DNA from: Lophium mytilinum | Taxonomy: Eukaryota | Length of the DNA: 64,000 nt | Direction of reading: 5' to 3' | Assembly (NCBI GenBank): GCA_010093605.1 | Contig: MU004183.1 | Coordinates: 558,001-622,000 of the forward strand | Shown here: piece by piece, positions 8,685 through 16,442 of the stretch | How positions within the stretch are numbered: the stretch's first letter is position 1 | How the letters are laid out: each line of letters starts with the position of its first letter | The notes under the pieces: generated by a model | The model's database searches: none | What the model saw: only the letters and a program-made list of their open reading frames with translations | What the model was told of the DNA's origin: nothing | Position numbers and translations under genes: made by a program

Positions 8685-10934
8685 CTATTGAAAATGAACC
8701 CGCGTATTCTGCGCCTCTTGTTTGCGACCATCAATATAGACCGCAAACTCCACCGCTGCTCCAGAAGGAACCATCTCCATATCTTATCGCAGCATCTTGT
8801 GTTCCTTGCCACTGGGGGTATTGAAGGTCTCGTAATCAGAAAATGGGACATCAATTGAACAGCTGATAATGCAAAGGTCCGTTACGCTCGAAGTGATGCG
8901 GCTTGGTGGGACCTCATCTTCGCATTGACACAATTGGAATCGGAGAAGGCCCCCAGAATCCTTTCTGTAGACCCGATAGAAATTGTATCGGATTGGATCT
9001 TTCTTCGACGAATTCTCTCCCTTGGCGAAGGCTGAGTGACAATACTTGCAACAGGCGGGGACATCACATACCTTCTTCAGGTACCATCTCACCTGATTAC
9101 GAGCCCTCCACACCTCTTCTTCGGAGTCCCATTCCTTATCCTCTTGGAGATGTTTACTTTCGTCGAAAAGACTCTTAGTGGTCACACCTAAGCTAAACCT
9201 CGACACTGTGGATATCACCTGAATGGGAGAACAGGTTTCGAAGGCTGCATAATCTGGTCCTGAGGCGCTTCCAGCGCAAATTCCGCCAAGAAAACCTTTA
9301 GTGACGGCGCCGCGGCAAATGGCAGTTCGGCTGGAAATGGTCATCTTCGAGGAAGGGCTTTTAGGTTCTTGGACAAGACTAAAACTTACGGTCTCATGCC
9401 TCCTGATTGCAAGATTTCGATACCCGCGTCCGCGTGCTTCTTCTTCAAATGCTCATACAGATATGGGCTTGCGCCTAGTCCCCCAACGAGGATGATACCC
9501 TGAAAGCCGTCAATCGATGTTCGGTCATGGGAGATGAGTGTCAATATAGGCAAACTCACGGCGACTTTTAGGTCTTGCTTAACCGTTTTCTGAAGTTGCC
9601 CGTCAACGAGAGCGTCGATGCCGGAGAAGGTCTCTGTGAAGGCCGATTGGATATGCGAGCTGGCGTTCAAGGTTAACCACCTATCTTGAATACATTCTCG
9701 AAAGCAAAGCTTACCTGGTAAAATGTATACGCCCATTCTTGATTTGCGGGTGCCGACTAGTATCATCTAGACTCGACTTCCCGAAAGCTTCCGCTGGAAT
9801 TCTAACGATGTACTCCTTTTTCCTATTCCTAGGCGTGAACTGTGGCTTGATAGCGTGTTCCCATTCTCCCTTCATGATCTCCTTGATTCCAGCCTTGCTC
9901 AGGTGATCCCATCTCCGGCCAAGACGAGCTTTGCACATTCTTTCGAACGCTTCATCAATGAAGATGCCTCCACATAGACCACCTAGACGATATGTCAGCT
10001 ACACTTCCACCAGCCACTATAGAACTTAGCTCATACCTGTTCCTTCAACGGCTTCTTCCAATCTGATTGGGTTGACTCCTCCAATTGTATAGCTGATGAG
10101 ATCCTTTGTCTGTCAGCATACGCATAGCAAAAGCCTTCGAAGACATGTCCACTCACAACAGTGCCACCTCCAGCATCACAGATCATATAGACATCGCCAG
10201 TTTTCAACTTACGCCCAGGCTCGCCGAGCGTAGACAAAGCAGCGGCCTCAGGCTCAGGAGCAAAAGTCAAAGTCGTAGTCCCAGCAGCTCTGCGGTCTAG
10301 GATACCAGCCTTCTTCACAGCTTGCTCCATTCCCTGTCTTGCATATCCTTTCCAAATTGCCGGCACTGTAATCACAACATGAAAAGACAAGGCTTCCACT
10401 ACCGACTCCCCACGGGACTTTTTGACAGTCTCGAGGATGTGAACCCAAAGTGCGCGCAAAAAATCACTAATGAAATCATTAGCGGTTTTTCCATTCTCTT
10501 TCAGCATCTTTCGTCCACGTAAAATGATCTCGTTAGAGCGCACTTCCGCATCCAGATCTTCGTCTTTCAGCAGGAGAAGCTTGAACCAGCGCACAGGATC
10601 GGCGTCAAGGGGGATCTCGTATCCCCACATGATTTGACTGTGCTCGTAGAATAATTCCGTGGGGACTTTGCCCTCTTCTCGGCCGGTGCCTGGCCAGCTG
10701 GTGATCATGTTGATTTGGTTGCTTGCGAAATCTTCTCCAGTCGCCCATGCAGCCCCCGAGTAACTATTTGATAATGAGAGTTAGCAACACGAGTATTTGA
10801 ACCGATCGAGGGATGAACGAAAAGACTCACGTCGTTCCAAAGTCGATTCCAATGACCATGAGATCGTCATCCTCGTGGACTGAGGATGCATCGTCGGTGA
10901 ACCTAGGCCTACTGGGTAAGCCGGCCGTGAACAT
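8685..10934 (-). CDS. Atypical Hsp70-family (HSPA12-like) actin-fold ATPase with an in-frame premature TAA at 8784-8786
   Basis: Spliced exons give IGIDFGTT, TVPAIW, EPEAAA, CDAGGGTVD, GLCGG and VGGLGASPY motifs, with no EEVD tail. After the TAA the same frame continues for 32 residues (DMEMVPSGAAVEFAVYIDGRKQEAQNTRVHFQ*) to 8685. Confidence 0.85.
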
Positions 10935-11796
10935 GCTTAAGTTCTCCGACGAACGCTAGGAAAGAAGTCCCAAAAATGGTATCGATATTCATAAAGATAT
11001 CAGGGATAAGACCTTCGGGGAAAAGGTTTTCGCGAGAGTAGACAATGAAACAAAAGAATCCAGCTCCGTACTGATCAGGCTGAGTCTGGAGAAGAAAGAG
11101 CCAAGAGCTGGAACGACTCCCGGTTACGCCACGTCAGGGATCTTGCACGTGATCAGGACCTTCACAGTTGCATCCAGCTGCGAGCATTAGAATGACTGTC
11201 TCCTTGACCAGGTGGAGCGGGGTAATTCTTACTGAGGGCAGCTGTGCCCATATTACCCTCACCAAGTTGATGATCGGGCTGAGACTTCGGAGTTACGCCA
11301 TGTGGTCCAGATCCGAGCCGGGCGGGCCAATCGAATATATTAGCTCTAAGACTGCAGCCTGATGCACTCCAATATTGGCTTGCATGAAAGGCCTTCCTCA
11401 CTGCGCTTTTGACTGGTAGACATTCGGTTGCCTTATCTGCAGCCTGGTGAAGATCTCGTCTTATTCGCGAGAAGTTGACATACTATGCATGAGTTGTCCA
11501 CATTTTCGAATGACACTGCATAGTTTCCGTCCACTAGATTCTGTTGATTCACCTTAGGCCACCTGAGCTGTTTGGTGTGGGGTCAAAAGGAATGTCGTGC
11601 TAGCCTTTGCAGCCTCGCTGCAAACAAAGCTACCATTACCCAGGCCAAAGCCTGATTACTTTGCACCGAACGAGGTGCGCGTCCTGGTATCTTCAGATCT
11701 TTTACTTTTGCAATCTTTACATCTACTTGGAATGTGACGGGCTCATTGCTCTCCTCTGCAAACTCTCGGTATCAAACACCCGCTATCTTTAACAAG

Positions 11797-13132
11797 ATGG
11801 CAACATCTCGTTCACCATCGCAATCGTGTGAAGATACGGTTGCATTCCAGGATCAAGATTCTTTAGAAGGTCTTCAAGATGAATTAGTCGAAGTCCATCC
11901 ATACTCGAACCCCGCAGGCCCTACTCTAATGGACGGCATCGAAGTCGCATCTCAGCCCGAGACCGTCGGATCGAGGAAAGTAGCAGCAGAAATAGCCCCG
12001 GATACGCTTCCAGTGCCGCCCCATGGTGGGAGTGAATTTGAACCTGAAGTCCAGTCCAGTCCGTGTGCTTCAGAGGTAGCTTCCTACGATGAGCTACAGT
12101 CTGAGCTCACCAAGGAGCGGGGTACTCGTGTAAATGCAGAGAACGAGCTGCGGAAGATGGAAACTGAGCTCAAGGATATTCGACAGCGTTGGAAGCTAAC
12201 AGCGCGCGAACTTGGAATAATCCAGAGAAAAGGCCAAGGTTCCGGGTTCTACCAGGTTACGGACGATTATCTGATTGGATTGATAACGCGATTGAGATAC
12301 AACATTCAGAATATCTCTATCCAGTACTTTTCAGAGCGCCTTGGGAGGGCTTCAAGACCTCCAAAGAACGGTGTTCTTTACGCGTTCATGAGATCCACCA
12401 CTCCTGGATCTGACGATTTTCTTGAATATTTGACTCATCCGGCGCTGCGCCCCAAGGTTATTGAGGCGTTCTTTTGGAGGGTTCTTGTGAGCAGACTGTT
12501 TTATAATTTCAAATGGGCCGGCAGGACGTTCCTCTCGATGTGGGAACTGTACCGCGTACTAGAACCTAGTGAGTATAATTTTGAAGCATCTTAGGAGAGA
12601 TCACGTCCGCTAACGCCTGTTCGAAGGTCACCATGCAAACACAGACTGGAAAGCTTGTCCCAACCCAGAGGCAGAAAAGAAATATCATATTTGGAGAAGC
12701 AACACGGTTGCTCTTCTGTTAGATTCGATGGATGAAAAGTTGAGCCATAAAGCAGACGAAACGCTGCCACGATGGAAGGCCAGATTTTTCGACCAAGTTG
12801 GGGTCATGATCAGTTCGTACCGAGCCTCCCACGTGAGGGATTATAGAGAGGAATTTATGAGAATTATTGATGAGGCGCTCGAGCTTGACAAAGAGATCAG
12901 CAGACAGGTAACTGGGATACAATTCTTATTTCAAGCGATAGATAGCAATCCCGATTTCGACTGCTCTACGATGGAGCGAGAGAAGGGGGTTAAGGTGTCG
13001 GGAAACAAGCAGAAGGTCCTCCTCGTAACGTCCCCAGCCGTCGTGAAAAGAGGAAGATCGACCGGTGAGGGCTTCAATGAAGCAACCTTGCTGTTACGTT
13101 CGGAGCTGTTGTGTGAGGACCGTCGCACATGA
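11797..13132 (+). CDS. Coiled-coil hypothetical protein (about 425 aa) with GrpE-like C-terminus, divergent partner of the Hsp70 gene
   Basis: ATG 11797; intron 12569-12626 (GTGAGT..CTAAC..AAG) joins the two ORFs in frame. Acidic disordered N-terminus, heptad region (ELQSELTKER...LKDIRQRWK), helical middle, C-terminal FDxxxME...VLLVTSPAVVKRG...LLLRSELLC. Confidence 0.8.
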
Positions 13133-13625: not shown

Positions 13626-15784
13626 CTAATCCGCAACCGTCAATGCCTCAAAGGCCGTCTCAACATCCCTGAGGCTCTCTCCCACCCTCAACCCTTTCGT
13701 CTTGACCACAGTCTCGGCTTTTTTCTCTCTATACTCCCTCCCCAACACCTCCATCACCTTTCCCATCCCCGCCTCTGCGCCCCTCTCCTCTAACCCCTTC
13801 TTCACTCGACCGAAGTTCTCCTTCACAAACGCTCTATACTCGCCACCAGCACTACTCCCCTCCTCTCCATCTACGACTTTGCCCCGGGGAACCGGCCTCG
13901 TCTGCACCAACTTCCCCCTACACTTCCCACACGTATGCCGCGCTGGATCGACGCTTCTACTATGCCTTTTAAACTCGTAGCCACACCCCTCACACTCCCA
14001 GACAAACTTGAACTCGATCTCGTAACTATGCTTCGTCGTGACCTCGATGCCTTGGTCGCCGAACAGCCGACCAACTTTCCGCGCCCAGGCTTTAAATTCC
14101 GCGCCGTGAGGCTGCGTGCGCTGCCCATCGATCATGAAAGTCGCGAGATGGCAGAACTCGTGCGCGAGGACGTTGCGGAGACGGTCGGGGTTGTCGATTA
14201 CTTTTGTTGCGAGTTCTATGGATGCGTGATTGCGGTATTTTGTTTCCACTGTCCCGTCCGGGGCACGCGTGCGGAAGGTTTCGCGCCGCCAATTTGCGCG
14301 GCCGGCGGTGGTTTTGAGTGTTTTGCTCCAGACAATCTTGGTACCGCCGGTTGAGGCTGTGAGGGCAGCGATTTGAGAAGATGTGGTGAGGGCATCCAGC
14401 TCGGTAAGGAAGGCGTGGGCGAGGGTGTCCTTTTCGGTCTCGAAATCCTTGCGGGCTTTGCGGGCAGCTGCGACCGCGGGGTCAGCTTTCTTAGATGGAC
14501 TTCTTGACTTCTTGGGTGATGAGGTGGGAGAGTCGTCTGAGTCATTATTTGCAAGGAACTTGGGCTTTCGGGGCGAAATGAGAGGCTTGGAGGGAGAGTA
14601 GGTGTCGTTCCAGGTGTTGATTACATCGGCAGACCAGAAAGCATCGAGGCTTGGACGGATGTGGGGAGGAGTTGGAATCCGGGGCTTCGCTTTTGACGGT
14701 GATTGGAGCCGAGATTTTGATGGGCTAGCTGGAGCAGGTGGTGGTGTGCTTGGGCGAGAACAATCAGGGGCAGCTTTGCGTGGCGAGTAGTTGCGTGGTG
14801 GGGAGCTGGGTCGATCGTCAGTATAAAACTTTGAAGAACATAATGGCTTTCTACTTACTACTGAAGCATAGCGTGGTGATCGTTTGAGGATGAGCTATTT
14901 GGCCGATTCGCAGTATTAGGAAGAGTGACAGGTCTCGGAAGCTGTTTCGGTCGTAATGGCTTCTTGGCCGGGGAAGGCGATGCTGTTAGGTCTATGACGG
15001 CCGAAACTGGCTCAGAAGTTGATCTTGCGGCATTCTCCAAAGATTTGCTTTTCGATTTATCATCTTTCCGCGACTTAGGCAATACCGGGGCGGGTTTACT
15101 CCTCTTTGATTCCGCCTCCGTTTCTGAAGCCTCGGTATCACTTGGGTCTGTGCCGCAACAGATACTCTCCTCTTCCTCAACTTCTTCGACCTCTTCAACC
15201 TCAGCTTCGACCTCCTTTGACTTCTCAGGCTCAGAAGACCTAGCATTTCTGCTCTTCTTCTCCGTCCTCGAAATCAAAACCTGCCTCCCACTCCCACCCT
15301 CCTTCCTCCTCCCTTTCTTCTCCAAAATCCTCGACTCTTCCAACGTCAACTTCTGCAGCAACGTCGTATTAACCGCCACCGGCCCCAAAACCCTTTGTCT
15401 GCGTTTCGGCGTATCTTTCGCTTTGGGCACCATCCCCACCCCTTTTCCCTTCTCCTTTCTCACAGCAGGCTCCTCCTCTTCCTCATCACTAGACTCCACA
15501 ATCCTCCTCCTCCTCACCGGCGCCACTACTGATCCCGCCTCTTTCGCCTTCCCTTTCCCAACCACCCCACCCGGTTTCCGCATCAAAATCTCTTCCAAGT
15601 CTGGCAGACTCTCATCCTCACTATTTCCACTCTCCTCCTCACTATCCCCACTCCCTTCAGCCTCCGATTCCGGCTCCGACGCACTCTCAAAATCCTCATC
15701 CGAGTCCGTGACTTTCTGCAGCGGCTTCTGCGACTTTTTCTGCGCCGGCTTCTGCACCAGCGCCGGGTTGCGCAACCTCGCCAT
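13626..15784 (-). CDS. SprT-like metalloprotease (GCNA/ACRC type)
   Basis: Long acidic/basic disordered N-terminus, intron 14806-14858, then WSKTLKTTAGRA, HEFCH zinc motif, CxxC..CxxC finger and an HMG-box-like tail (YRAFVKENF...MEVLGREY). Confidence 0.87.
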
Positions 15785-16442
15785 GCCTCAATCCAACGCG
15801 TTTGGCGTCGACGGAGCCAAAGGACGAAAACAATATCCAAGGTTACCAAAGAAATAAGTAGTGGTGTGTCGGGTCGAGTTGCAAGGCTAGGGCAGTAATG
15901 GGAACGGTAAGGCTGGCTGGTGGACCGAAGTTCGCGGTTTCGCGATGTTTTGGGTTGTGGTTGGTGCGGCAACGGCGCAAATCACGTGACTAACTAACCC
16001 CGATGAGCGGAATCGAGCACAGCATTCACCACCTGCAGTGGGGTGAGGGTAAAGTATTTCATGTAGACTTTCCGCTGAATAATAGACATCAACAGCAATC
16101 ATGAGGTATGTGGCATATACAGAACAATCATCAAAAGGAAAACCCAGAAAAACTTTGCTACCAAACAGCTACATACAGATAGAGAGGCTTCTAAAGCACC
16201 ATCCCATCCACCACGCACGCAGAAGAATACAGTTGCATTGACGGGCCGCAAGTTTCATCATCGCATGCATCGCATCGCTCGGACAGTCATGTGCTTGCGT
16301 GCTCTCATTTCATCTCATCCGCATTCGTCCACCCCAGCTCCCCCCCGGATGATCGGGACTTAGGGATATACCTCCCAGGCCCTCTCGTCATGCTCTCTCA
16401 CTCGCTACTTTGATCTCGTCACGTAGACTGTCGATTTATCAT

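What the first reader, a model, noticed from the sequence alone, without database searches (positions are those of the whole stretch)
8685..13132. Head-to-head atypical Hsp70 plus GrpE-like coiled-coil protein: candidate dedicated chaperone/nucleotide-exchange-factor module
Seen: an HSPA12-like Hsp70 (intact ATPase motifs, no EEVD) and an unannotated protein of about 425 aa are divergently transcribed from an 860-bp spacer, inserted between housekeeping genes. The partner has a disordered N-terminus, a long coiled coil, a helical bundle and a terminal segment FDCSTME...VLLVTSPAVVKRG...LLLRSELLC (about 12956-13120). Known: GrpE has this order of parts, ending in a beta-domain of pattern FDPxxHEA...VxxVxxxGY...vlRxAxVxV, and bacterial grpE is linked to dnaK. 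Eukaryotic cytosolic Hsp70s normally use BAG/Fes1/Hsp110 exchange factors instead. Inference: this is a cognate Hsp70-GrpE-like two-gene system with no visible organelle presequence, possibly acting in non-self recognition or stress rather than general folding. The GrpE similarity is by eye only.
Basis: partly seen in the sequence, partly recalled or inferred. Interest (0 to 1): 0.85.

Follow-up and report, generated by a model that had tools for sequence, protein, structure and literature searches.

The report
Orphan Hsp70 with its own partner
In this fungus and its relatives, an unusual Hsp70-type ATPase gene always sits head-to-head with a gene for an unnamed protein that is predicted to clamp its ATPase domain, which could give this poorly understood Hsp70 branch its first candidate helper protein.

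Summary
The window is Lophium mytilinum DNA. The gene pair is real. An HSPA12-type Hsp70-like gene (minus strand, 8 coding exons) and a 425-aa gene (plus strand, 2 exons) diverge from an 862-bp spacer.

The Hsp70-like frame ends at an in-frame TAA (8786-8784), which cuts off a conserved 32-residue tail.

The pairing is conserved. It is head-to-head in 5 of 5 metagenome loci. The genes carry adjacent gene numbers in two genomes and share a contig in three more. No third shared gene was found.

A complex predictor supports binding: score 0.80 against a best control of 0.00. The footprint covers subdomain IIB and the loop that aligns to DnaK residues 29-32.

Best reading: a dedicated cofactor that works on GrpE's logic without proven GrpE membership. 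My searches found no paper describing it. This scan had already noted similar pairs in bacteria and Naegleria.

The parts
8784..10934 (-). HSPA12-type Hsp70-like ATPase gene, CDS as annotated (583 aa, P0008). Exons: 10934-10831, 10763-10157, 10103-10037, 9982-9715, 9659-9560, 9499-9390, 9330-9072, 9020-8784.
   Evidence: Read from the sequence. The exon sum is 1752 nt, i.e. 583 aa plus stop, equal to P0008. All seven introns are skipped in the X3 contig with CT..AC ends on the + strand. Weak Pfam HSP70 match at 18.9 bits, below the 20.6 cut-off. Homologues are named Heat shock 70 kDa protein 12B by their sources.
8784..8786 (-). In-frame TAA that ends the Hsp70-like frame early.
   Evidence: Homologues of 611-648 aa continue past this point. 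The codon is unchanged in runs X1, X2 and X3.
8685..8783 (-). Open, still-conserved 32-codon tail after the TAA, plus the TAG at 8687-8685. This is the ancestral C-terminus of the Hsp70-like protein.
   Evidence: 25/32 identical to residues 582-613 of the Mytilinidion orthologue P0009. Aligned.
10935..11796 (.). 862-bp divergent spacer between the two start codons.
   Evidence: It is covered end to end by the X3 contig.
11178..11232 (-). 55-nt intron in the 5' leader of the Hsp70-like transcript.
   Evidence: Joint 11177 to 11233 in the X3 contig with CT..AC ends; absent from DNA runs X1 and X2.
11797..13132 (+). Partner gene (425 aa, P0001): exon 1 11797-12568, intron 12569-12626, exon 2 12627-13132.
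   Evidence: An intron at the same place is implied in L001 by two tblastn segments.
12064..12237 (+). Partner residues 90-147: long single helix. Its end (residues 129-144) lies in the predicted interface.
12244..12333 (+). Partner residues 150-179: the family's most conserved motif (QGFYQVTDxYLIxLxxxLRYNIxNxxIQYF). It is the main predicted contact with Hsp70-like subdomain IIB.
   Evidence: Conservation. Lowest-error contact pairs. Interface residues are more conserved than the rest of the partner (p=2.4e-4).
12914..13114 (+). Partner residues 354-420: six-stranded C-terminal beta domain with FDxxxME...VxLVxxPxxxKRGxSTGE...LLxxExxC.
   Evidence: Models (domain model pLDDT 89.3). Weak GrpE resemblance. 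Nearer to GIL1_IRKI_C and MIEAP.

Best explanation
This is a conserved two-gene module of filamentous ascomycetes. An HSPA12-type Hsp70-like ATPase and a dedicated partner protein are transcribed divergently from a shared region.

Inferred mechanism: the partner binds the ATPase's nucleotide-binding domain. Its most conserved helix (residues 153-179) lies on the tip of subdomain IIB. The end of its long helix and loops of its C-terminal beta domain reach lobe I, including the HSPA12-specific insertion at the place of DnaK's 28-33 loop. A protein that bridges both lobes across the nucleotide cleft in this way most likely controls nucleotide release. It would act on the logic of GrpE or BAG exchange factors and would give the orphan ATPase its own cycle regulator.

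It works like a GrpE, but it is not shown to be a member of the GrpE family. Its nearest named folds are MIEAP and GIL1/IRKI_C.

Shown here: gene structures, conservation of the pairing, transcription and splicing of the ATPase gene.
Predicted only: binding and its footprint.
Inferred only: nucleotide exchange.

In Lophium itself the ATPase has lost its last 32 residues to a TAA.
For: Pairing:
- 5 of 5 metagenome loci found with the partner profile carry an Hsp70-like gene upstream on the opposite strand.
- Adjacent tags VP1G_05585/05586 in Cytospora mali and Fc.00g001120/001130 in Cosmosporella.
- Same contig in Mytilinidion, Lentithecium and Acephala.
- Only these two genes are shared among the loci.
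- Distances between 6 named pairs correlate: Mantel r 0.85, with 4 of 720 permutations as high.

Binding:
- ipSAE 0.80, 0.80 and 0.79 against a best of 3 controls at 0.00.
- The mark was reached by 51 of 78 solved complexes and 2 of 108 mismatched pairs. On eukaryotes it was reached by 39 of 65 solved pairs with no like complex among older structures and by 2 of 126 unrelated pairs.
- The runs agree in at least 86% of contacts, and the partner's pLDDT is at least 80.

Footprint:
- ATPase residues 299-346 align to DnaK 262-299 (IIB). Residues 51-66 are an insertion at DnaK 29-32. Subdomain boundaries are recalled from the literature.
- The partner's interface residues are more conserved than the rest of its folded part: 2.1 against 1.6 bits, p=2.4e-4.

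Shape:
- The order of parts is disordered N-terminus, long helix, helices, six-stranded beta domain.
- GrpE clusters are among the 30 nearest Atlas models: TM 0.54-0.56 over 67 residues.
- hhalign places FDPxxME on GrpE's FDPxxH.

Expression: the X3 contig has all ATPase-gene introns removed.
Against: - No significant sequence link to GrpE. Pfam finds nothing for P0001; 2 of 86 family members match at E of 0.0075 or worse.
- The PDB profile search shows no GrpE among the 60 rows displayed of 73.
- hhalign probability is 0.1-10%. The match to canonical GrpE (score 16.1) is below its reversed control (19.7).
- HMMER hits of the partner profile on bacterial GrpE fall in the acidic, coiled-coil part and have high bias.
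- Fold scores are below the usual trust levels.
- The helical domain (about 200 aa) has no counterpart in GrpE.
- The predicted contact is led by a helix, not by the beta head.
- The ATPase side of the interface is not more conserved than the rest (p=0.18).
- The predictor did not use my alignments, was run 1:1, and is calibrated mainly on microbes.
- In this genome the ATPase is truncated. The one X3 contig over the partner gene keeps the partner's intron.
Confidence: 0.55

Rival explanations
1. The partner is a true, very diverged member of the GrpE superfamily. GrpE's helix-plus-beta-wing module has been kept and a large helical insert added, and the protein acts as a dimeric exchange factor exactly as GrpE does on DnaK.
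For: - Co-linear local profile matches. The long helix RxxWKxxAxEL falls on GrpE's lRxxAEmeNlR, and FDPxxME falls on FDPxxH.
- Against a diverged bacterial GrpE-like group, which is itself 98.9% probable GrpE, the match spans 104 columns. Its score of 23.7 exceeds the reversed control (9.0) and all 20 column shuffles (maximum 15.1).
- Foldseek ranks GrpE 1, 6, 12 and 14 of 232 for the C-terminal model.
- Linkage to an Hsp70-type gene.
Against: - The canonical GrpE profile does no better than its reversed copy.
- Pfam GrpE is not matched.
- MIEAP and GIL1_IRKI_C are structurally closer.
- Dimerisation was not tested.
Confidence: 0.25
2. The partner is not a cycle regulator. It is the client, adaptor or effector of the ATPase: a MIEAP/GIL1-like scaffold with a variable disordered N-terminus whose assembly state or location is remodelled by the HSPA12-type ATPase.
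For: - The nearest named folds are MIEAP (TM 0.54 over residues 150-425, 0.66 over 328-425) and GIL1_IRKI_C (0.50-0.71).
- The N-terminus is disordered and of very variable length in the family.
- A Basidiomycota cluster joins the same fold to an MMR_HSR1 GTPase.
- The partner evolves about 1.7 times faster than the ATPase.
Against: - The predicted contact is on the nucleotide-binding domain (IIB and lobe I), not on the C-terminal domain where a client would be expected.
- The contact uses the partner's most conserved residues.
- No Pfam MIEAP or GIL1_IRKI_C match in 86 members at E below 0.0015 or in 5 C-terminal pieces at E up to 10.
Confidence: 0.3
3. The module is a conflict or non-self-recognition system, rather than a proteostasis device.
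For: - Both families are large. The partner family has 404 clusters at 50% identity. The ATPase search gave 1017 hits among 4786 candidates.
- The partner diverges fast.
- One genome (this one) carries a fresh nonsense mutation.
Against: - No defence-family match for the ATPase. The partner gives only a weak coiled-coil hit (PDC-S27, E 0.0022) in PADLOC.
- No NLR, HET or toxin domain was found in either protein.
- The flanking genes are ordinary.
Confidence: 0.12
4. In Lophium mytilinum the module is decaying. The TAA makes the ATPase non-functional, so the pair here is a relic.
For: - An in-frame TAA removes 32 conserved residues.
- It is present in DNA and in the spliced contig.
- That contig keeps the partner's intron, which would end the partner at residue 265.
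Against: - The ATPase gene is transcribed and all seven coding introns are correctly spliced.
- There is no other stop or frameshift in either gene.
- The tail after the TAA is as conserved (78%) as the whole protein (78%), so the change is very recent or is read through.
- The interface lies before residue 420.
- Contigs cannot show that the spliced partner form is absent.
Confidence: 0.3

Closest known systems
DnaK-GrpE (Pfam PF01025; structure 1DKG)
   Same: - An Hsp70-type ATPase gene is linked to a gene for a protein with a disordered N-terminus, a long helix, further helices and a small six-stranded C-terminal beta domain carrying an FDP-type motif.
- The partner is predicted to bind the nucleotide-binding domain at IIB and at the loop equivalent to DnaK 28-33.
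   Different: - No significant sequence match.
- The helical part is about 200 aa rather than about 50.
- The predicted contact is led by a helix rather than by the beta wing.
- The ATPase is HSPA12-type with a non-canonical C-terminal domain, and the pair is cytosolic by inspection.
- Dimerisation and exchange activity are untested.
MIEAP domain (PF16026; animal Mieap/SPATA18) and plant GIL1/IRKI C-terminal domain (PF24994, with DUF641)
   Same: - These are the nearest named predicted folds. GIL1_IRKI_C reaches TM 0.70-0.71 and MIEAP 0.66 over residues 328-425. Over residues 150-425 the values are 0.50-0.59.
- Members are also coiled-coil proteins with a C-terminal domain of this kind.
   Different: - No HMMER-level match.
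- No MIEAP or GIL1 sequence could be fetched, so no profile comparison was made.
- No Hsp70 link is described for either family in the papers I searched.
Vertebrate HSPA12A/HSPA12B and the 'actin-like ATPase domain-containing' HSPA12-like proteins of fungi
   Same: - The ATPase belongs to this branch by its sources' names for close homologues.
- It shares their conserved ATPase motifs and their lack of a helical lid and EEVD end.
- Reviews state that HSPA12's function is unknown (passages).
   Different: Here the gene comes with a fixed neighbour. No cofactor is reported for HSPA12 in the two reviews whose passages I read.
HSPA12-type Hsp70 plus partner 'ending like GrpE' in bacteria and Naegleria
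   Same: The same logic applies: an orphan HSPA12-type ATPase with a dedicated coiled-coil partner whose tail resembles GrpE's wing.
   Different: - Those are unchecked AI notes on other DNA.
- I could not fetch such bacterial loci. The profile gave only scores of about 25 bits, in 19 of 401 genomes, and one false locus.
- Kinship of the fungal partner to those partners is therefore untested.
- The fungal partner is roughly twice as long.
BAG-domain exchange factors (recalled from the literature, no call)
   Same: A helical element that grips IIB and lobe I of the nucleotide-binding domain.
   Different: No sequence or fold match was seen in any search here.

Membership tests
GrpE (PF01025) | Matches the family profile above its curated cut-off (25.8 bits) | tested here: not met
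   - No GrpE row for the window's exons at E up to 1 or 10 or for P0001.
- 2 of 86 family members match at best E 0.0075.
- hhalign probability 0.1-7.5% against E. coli GrpE or a 31-sequence GrpE alignment.
- The real score (16.1) is below the reversed control (19.7).
GrpE (PF01025) | Order of parts: disordered N-terminus, long helix, short helical bundle, C-terminal beta domain | tested here: inconclusive
   The order is the same, but the helical part spans residues 156-350, far larger than GrpE's.
GrpE (PF01025) | C-terminal six-stranded beta 'wing' of GrpE fold | tested here: inconclusive
   - Foldseek places GrpE at ranks 1, 6, 12 and 14 but with E 0.6-1.6.
- Atlas gives TM 0.54-0.56 over 67 residues.
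- GrpE is not in the top 50 of the wide VIA search, which was filled by helical hairpins.
GrpE (PF01025) | Homodimer through the long helices and four-helix bundle | not tested
GrpE (PF01025) | Binds the Hsp70 nucleotide-binding domain across lobes I and II | tested here: met
   This is a prediction only. ipSAE is 0.80 against a best control of 0.00. The interface covers residues 299-346 (aligned to DnaK 262-299, IIB), 51-66 (insertion at DnaK 29-32), 151-160, 194-196 and 416-420.
GrpE (PF01025) | Accelerates ADP/ATP release from its Hsp70 | not testable with these tools
   Needs a nucleotide-release assay.
MIEAP (PF16026) / GIL1_IRKI_C (PF24994) | Matches the family profile | tested here: not met
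   Neither family appears among the rows for P0001 or the 25 families listed for 86 members; the unlisted ones have E above 0.0015. Neither appears for 5 C-terminal pieces at E up to 10.
MIEAP (PF16026) / GIL1_IRKI_C (PF24994) | Same predicted fold | tested here: inconclusive
   - Atlas structure search, residues 328-425: GIL1_IRKI_C TM 0.70-0.71 (84-85 residues aligned) and MIEAP 0.66 (85 aligned).
- Residues 150-425: MIEAP 0.54, GIL1-type 0.50-0.59.
- Feature scores of 0.78-0.82 are below the tool's 0.9 bar.
- Both sides are predicted models.
HSPA12-type Hsp70 | Hsp70/actin-fold ATPase with phosphate-1, phosphate-2 and adenosine motifs | tested here: met
   - GIDFGTT (29-35), DAGGGTVD (231-238) and ILVGGLG (384-390) are invariant or nearly so in 7 and 87 sequences.
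- Pfam HSP70 gives 18.9 bits for P0008 (below the 20.6 cut-off) and 26.3 bits for P0009.
HSPA12-type Hsp70 | Groups with proteins named HSPA12 rather than with DnaK, HscA or Ssa | tested here: met
   - Close homologues (64-79% identity over the query exon) are named 'Heat shock 70 kDa protein 12B' by their sources.
- Bacterial DnaK and HscA models score only 16-41 bits against cut-offs of 331-1019.
- No tree was built.
HSPA12-type Hsp70 | No canonical helical lid and no EEVD end | tested here: met
   The C-terminus is ...KMLR here and ...VHFQ in homologues. Lid absence rests on the reviews' statement and was not modelled here.

The most novel reading that the evidence does not exclude
The fungal partner, animal Mieap/SPATA18-type MIEAP-domain proteins, plant GIL1/IRKI proteins and the bacterial and Naegleria partners noted earlier by this scan are one ancient, GrpE-derived class of dedicated cofactors of HSPA12-type Hsp70s.

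This would explain a published result. In bivalves, the Hsp70-family orthogroup (68.1 genes per species against 4.4 in other molluscs) and the Mieap orthogroup (53.1 against 0.6) are both hugely expanded, each with duplications in the bivalve ancestor (PMC8382680, passages read). A review says the bivalve Hsp70 expansion is of HSPA12A/B (PMC13580251, passages).

It would give HSPA12A/B their first co-chaperone and give Mieap a biochemical partner.
Probability: 0.2. Interest if true: 0.9.

Novelty: new variant of a known kind. Interest (0 to 1): 0.72.

Why it matters
HSPA12-type Hsp70s occur from bacteria to humans. They are expanded to tens of copies in bivalves, yet two 2026 reviews give them no known function or cofactor (passages read).

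A conserved neighbour gene that is predicted to bind the ATPase gives a concrete and cheap experiment: co-purify the two proteins and measure nucleotide release.

It also names a fungal protein family of at least 404 clusters at 50% identity that has no Pfam entry.

If the fold link to MIEAP and GIL1/IRKI holds, the same experiment becomes relevant to a human p53-target protein and to a plant family of unknown mechanism.

I found no paper describing the pairing. Searches; PMC open-access and bioRxiv only.

Tried and rejected
- Whole genome: none is held for this window, so paralogue pairs within Lophium could not be surveyed. The window itself has no second copy of either gene.
- The search for related loci with the 86-sequence alignment failed because no stretch was conserved enough. 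A 14-sequence alignment then worked.
- Bridging to bacteria. The genome-contig scan with the ATPase alignment gave one false locus without any Hsp70 gene. The profile over 401 genomes of one phylum gave only matches of about 25 bits in frames of 625-800 aa, which I take to be ordinary DnaK or HscA (not verified). NCBIfam has no HSPA12-type model.
- My last homologue search, with E. coli GrpE, returned only 88-99% identical enterobacterial proteins among the 120 listed. It was useless for a diverse profile, so I took 30 GrpE genes from the genome search instead.
- Partner HMM against 514 bacterial ORFs. All 5 hits are GrpE, but they lie in the acidic coiled-coil part with high bias, so I rejected them as evidence.
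- PADLOC: only PDC-S27 at E 0.0022, on the coiled coil.
- Earlier-findings look-up by sequence found nothing.
- RNA: no listed holder is on record as RNA. X3 is labelled RNA only as a guess. I treat its contig as spliced RNA only because of its eight GT-AG joints, which are absent from the DNA runs. No contig joins across the partner's intron, and this does not show that the spliced form is absent.
- Supplements of PMC8382680 were not opened. They may show whether bivalve HSP70 and Mieap genes are neighbours.

Full report
WHAT IS THERE

The window is from the dothideomycete Lophium mytilinum. Both genes equal NCBI proteins of that species at 100% identity over the queried exons.

The partner gene lies on the plus strand. 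Its ATG is at 11797. A 58-nt GT-AG intron (12569-12626) splits a serine codon, and the stop is at 13130-13132, giving 425 aa. This equals P0001, 'hypothetical protein BU16DRAFT_578124'.

The Hsp70-like gene lies on the minus strand, from ATG 10934 to TAA 8786-8784, with eight coding exons. It gives 583 aa and equals P0008, 'actin-like ATPase domain-containing protein'. The two start codons are 862 bp apart.

The flanking genes are COG5, ureidoglycolate lyase and a SprT-like protease.

The Hsp70-like frame is closed by an in-frame TAA. Six homologues of 611-648 aa run on for about 32 more residues.

In Lophium those 32 codons are still open after the TAA, down to the TAG at 8687-8685. They are 25/32 identical to the Mytilinidion C-terminus, which is the same level as the whole protein (78%). 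The finding's start coordinate (8685) silently reads through this stop.

The TAA is not an assembly slip. Two DNA runs, which may be the assembly's own source, and a contig of a third run from another sample and study all carry the window's letters there.

TRANSCRIPTION

The third run (X3) is labelled RNA only as a guess. Its 4157-nt contig nevertheless skips seven segments that coincide with my seven coding introns. It also skips a further 55-nt segment (11178-11232) in the spacer. All eight have CT..AC ends on the plus strand, which is GT..AG on the minus strand, and none is skipped in the DNA runs.

The Hsp70-like gene is therefore transcribed and spliced, and its leader reaches into the spacer past 11233. 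The same contig runs on without a gap across the spacer and the partner gene to beyond 13200, with the partner's intron retained.

A contig across two genes shows no single transcript, and contigs drop rare variants. I conclude only that an unspliced form of the partner region is present in that run.

IS THE PAIRING MORE THAN CHANCE?

Yes.
- A scan of metagenome contigs with a 14-sequence partner alignment gave five loci. In 5 of 5, tblastn with the Mytilinidion Hsp70-like protein finds a gene upstream of the partner on the opposite strand. The N-terminal HSP starts roughly 1 to 1.9 kb before the first aligned partner residue; in L002-L004 the partner's N-terminus itself is not aligned.
- In Cytospora mali the two proteins carry adjacent tags, VP1G_05585 and VP1G_05586. 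In Cosmosporella sp. they are Fc.00g001120 and Fc.00g001130.
- In Mytilinidion, Lentithecium and Acephala both proteins lie on a contig of the same length.
- Translated comparison of the window's first 22 kb with the five loci finds only these two genes in common. There is no conserved third gene and no J-domain gene.
- For six named pairs, the pairwise distances of the two proteins correlate: Mantel r 0.85, with 4 of 720 permutations as high. The partner diverges 1.7 times faster. Shared species history alone could produce this correlation.

THE TWO FAMILIES

The ATPase is HSPA12-type. Its close homologues are named 'Heat shock 70 kDa protein 12B' by their sources. The three ATPase motifs are invariant or nearly so. 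Pfam HSP70 is matched only weakly: 18.9 bits for P0008, below the cut-off of 20.6, and 26.3 bits for P0009.

The partner belongs to an unnamed family. A full HMMER search of 1.84 billion representatives gives 404 proteins at E of 0.001 or better, 221 at 1e-10 and 53 at 1e-30. These are conserved over query residues of about 95-421. No Pfam family matches P0001.

The AlphaFold2 model (pLDDT 80.4, pTM 0.70) shows:
- residues 1-89 disordered;
- one long helix, 90-147;
- a helical domain, 156-350;
- a six-stranded beta domain, 354-420.

A model of exon 2 alone (residues 259-425) has pLDDT 89.3.

IS THE PARTNER A GrpE?

By sequence, this is not shown.
- Pfam GrpE does not match the window's protein. 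Only 2 of 86 family members match, at E of 0.0075 or worse.
- A family profile against all PDB sequences lists no GrpE among the 60 rows shown of 73 at E of 10 or better.
- hhalign gives 0.12% against E. coli GrpE. It gives 1-7.5% against 31 GrpE sequences that I took from E. coli and 30 proteobacterial genomes.
- The local matches are co-linear and sensible. The end of the long helix falls on GrpE's conserved helix motif, and FDPxxME falls on FDPxxH. But the real score against canonical GrpE (16.1) is below that against the reversed alignment (19.7).
- Only against a small diverged bacterial GrpE-like group does the match stand out. That group is itself 98.9% probable GrpE. The match spans 104 columns with score 23.7, against 9.0 for the reversed alignment and at most 15.1 in 20 shuffles. 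The probability is still only 6-10%.

By fold, the resemblance is weak but recurrent.
- Foldseek with the C-terminal model ranks GrpE chains 1, 6, 12 and 14 of 232, at E 0.6-1.6.
- The Atlas structure search places two bacterial GrpE clusters among the 30 nearest models for residues 328-425: TM 0.54-0.56, 67 residues aligned.

Closer still in that search are plant GIL1/IRKI_C (TM 0.70-0.71) and MIEAP (0.66). Over residues 150-425, MIEAP (0.54) and GIL1-type clusters (0.50-0.59) are the only named neighbours.

I therefore do not file the partner under GrpE. I describe it as GrpE-like in layout and nearest in fold to MIEAP and GIL1/IRKI_C.

DOES IT BIND THE ATPase?

One complex job was run: full-length P0008 with partner residues 90-425. 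It gave ipSAE 0.80, 0.80 and 0.79, with the best of three controls at 0.00.
- The mark was reached by 51 of 78 solved complexes and 2 of 108 mismatched pairs.
- On eukaryotes it was reached by 39 of 65 solved pairs with no like complex among older structures, and by 2 of 126 unrelated pairs.
- The runs agree in at least 86% of contacts, and the partner's pLDDT is at least 80.
- Of blind neighbouring genes, 7 of 44 passed in the tool's own test.
- The model supports binding but does not show it. My alignments were not used by the predictor.
- DnaK-GrpE is a solved complex, so a pass 'from memory' is conceivable. However, the partner has no detectable sequence likeness to GrpE.

The lowest-error pairs join ATPase residues 299-318 and 344-346 to partner residues 161-176. 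When E. coli DnaK is added to the 87-sequence alignment:
- residues 299-346 fall on DnaK 262-299, which is subdomain IIB (boundaries recalled from the literature);
- residues 51-66 are an HSPA12-specific conserved insertion at DnaK 29-32;
- residues 151-160, 194-196 and 416-420 fall in lobe IA and IIA.

I recall from the literature, without a call, two points. IIB is the face used by all known Hsp70 exchange factors. The DnaK 28-33 loop is needed for stable GrpE binding.

The partner's interface residues are more conserved than the rest of its folded part (2.1 against 1.6 bits, Mann-Whitney p=2.4e-4). The ATPase side is not (p=0.18).

HOW IT MOST LIKELY WORKS

The partner clamps both lobes of the nucleotide-binding domain. 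It thereby sets the ATPase's nucleotide state, giving a dedicated exchange-type cofactor for an Hsp70 branch that has no known co-chaperone.
- Shown: the genes, the conserved pairing, and transcription.
- Predicted: the binding and its footprint.
- Inferred: the effect on nucleotide exchange.

The main rival is that the partner is the machine's client or adaptor. This reading is favoured by the MIEAP-like fold, the variable disordered N-terminus and a GTPase-fused relative in Basidiomycota. It is disfavoured by the position of the interface.

WIDER LEADS

Earlier notes of this scan report HSPA12-type genes paired with a partner 'ending like GrpE' in bacteria and Naegleria. I could not fetch such loci to test kinship, so this remains a lead.

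Independently, Regan et al. 2021 report that the Hsp70-family and Mieap orthogroups are two of the largest ancestral expansions in bivalves (PMC8382680, passages read). A 2026 review says the bivalve Hsp70 expansion is HSPA12 and that HSPA12's function is unknown (PMC13580251, passages).

Together with the MIEAP-like fold of the fungal partner, this suggests that MIEAP-fold proteins are the general partners of HSPA12-type Hsp70s. The idea is untested.

VERDICT

The cognate-pair idea is well supported. GrpE membership is not demonstrated. The pair is a new variant of the Hsp70-plus-cofactor theme, and I found no description of it in the papers I searched.

Noticed in passing
window 11178-11232 (minus strand): A 55-nt GT-AG intron lies in the 5' leader of the Hsp70-like transcript, inside the 'intergenic' spacer. 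The leader therefore starts less than 565 bp from the partner's ATG, and the two transcripts may abut or overlap.
   Followed up: partly
window 12569-12626: The one X3 contig over the partner gene keeps the partner's 58-nt intron. This would end the protein at residue 265, at a TAG in the intron. Whether a spliced form exists in that run cannot be told from contigs.
   Followed up: partly
L059-L063 (bacterial genomes G039, G027, G047, G003, G035); L058 similar: A second, diverged GrpE-like gene (221-254 aa; hhalign 98.9% to GrpE) sits next to a 585-632-aa Hsp70-like ORF and an 840-911-aa ORF in five proteobacterial genomes. It looks like a separate non-housekeeping Hsp70 module. The large ORF was not identified.
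   Followed up: partly
Atlas clusters (no locus): A Basidiomycota cluster of 100 members (628-aa representative) aligns to the partner's residues 150-425 at TM 0.69. 57% of its members carry an MMR_HSR1 GTPase domain, so this looks like a fused form of the partner fold.
   Followed up: no
L002 and L004 (same metagenome, contigs of 17000 and 17061 bases): These two contigs share far more than the gene pair: similarity runs along most of their length. They are probably two alleles or close strains, so they are not fully independent witnesses of the pairing.
   Followed up: no
window 11390-11796 versus L001: Translated similarity between the window and L001 extends about 400 bp upstream of the partner's ATG. 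No in-frame ATG lies there in Lophium. This may be a conserved leader or promoter.
   Followed up: no
window 13629-14894 and 14858-15787 (minus strand): The SprT-like protease ORF (422 aa) is directly followed by a long acidic, serine-rich ORF (309 aa). They may be one spliced gene; I did not examine this.
   Followed up: no
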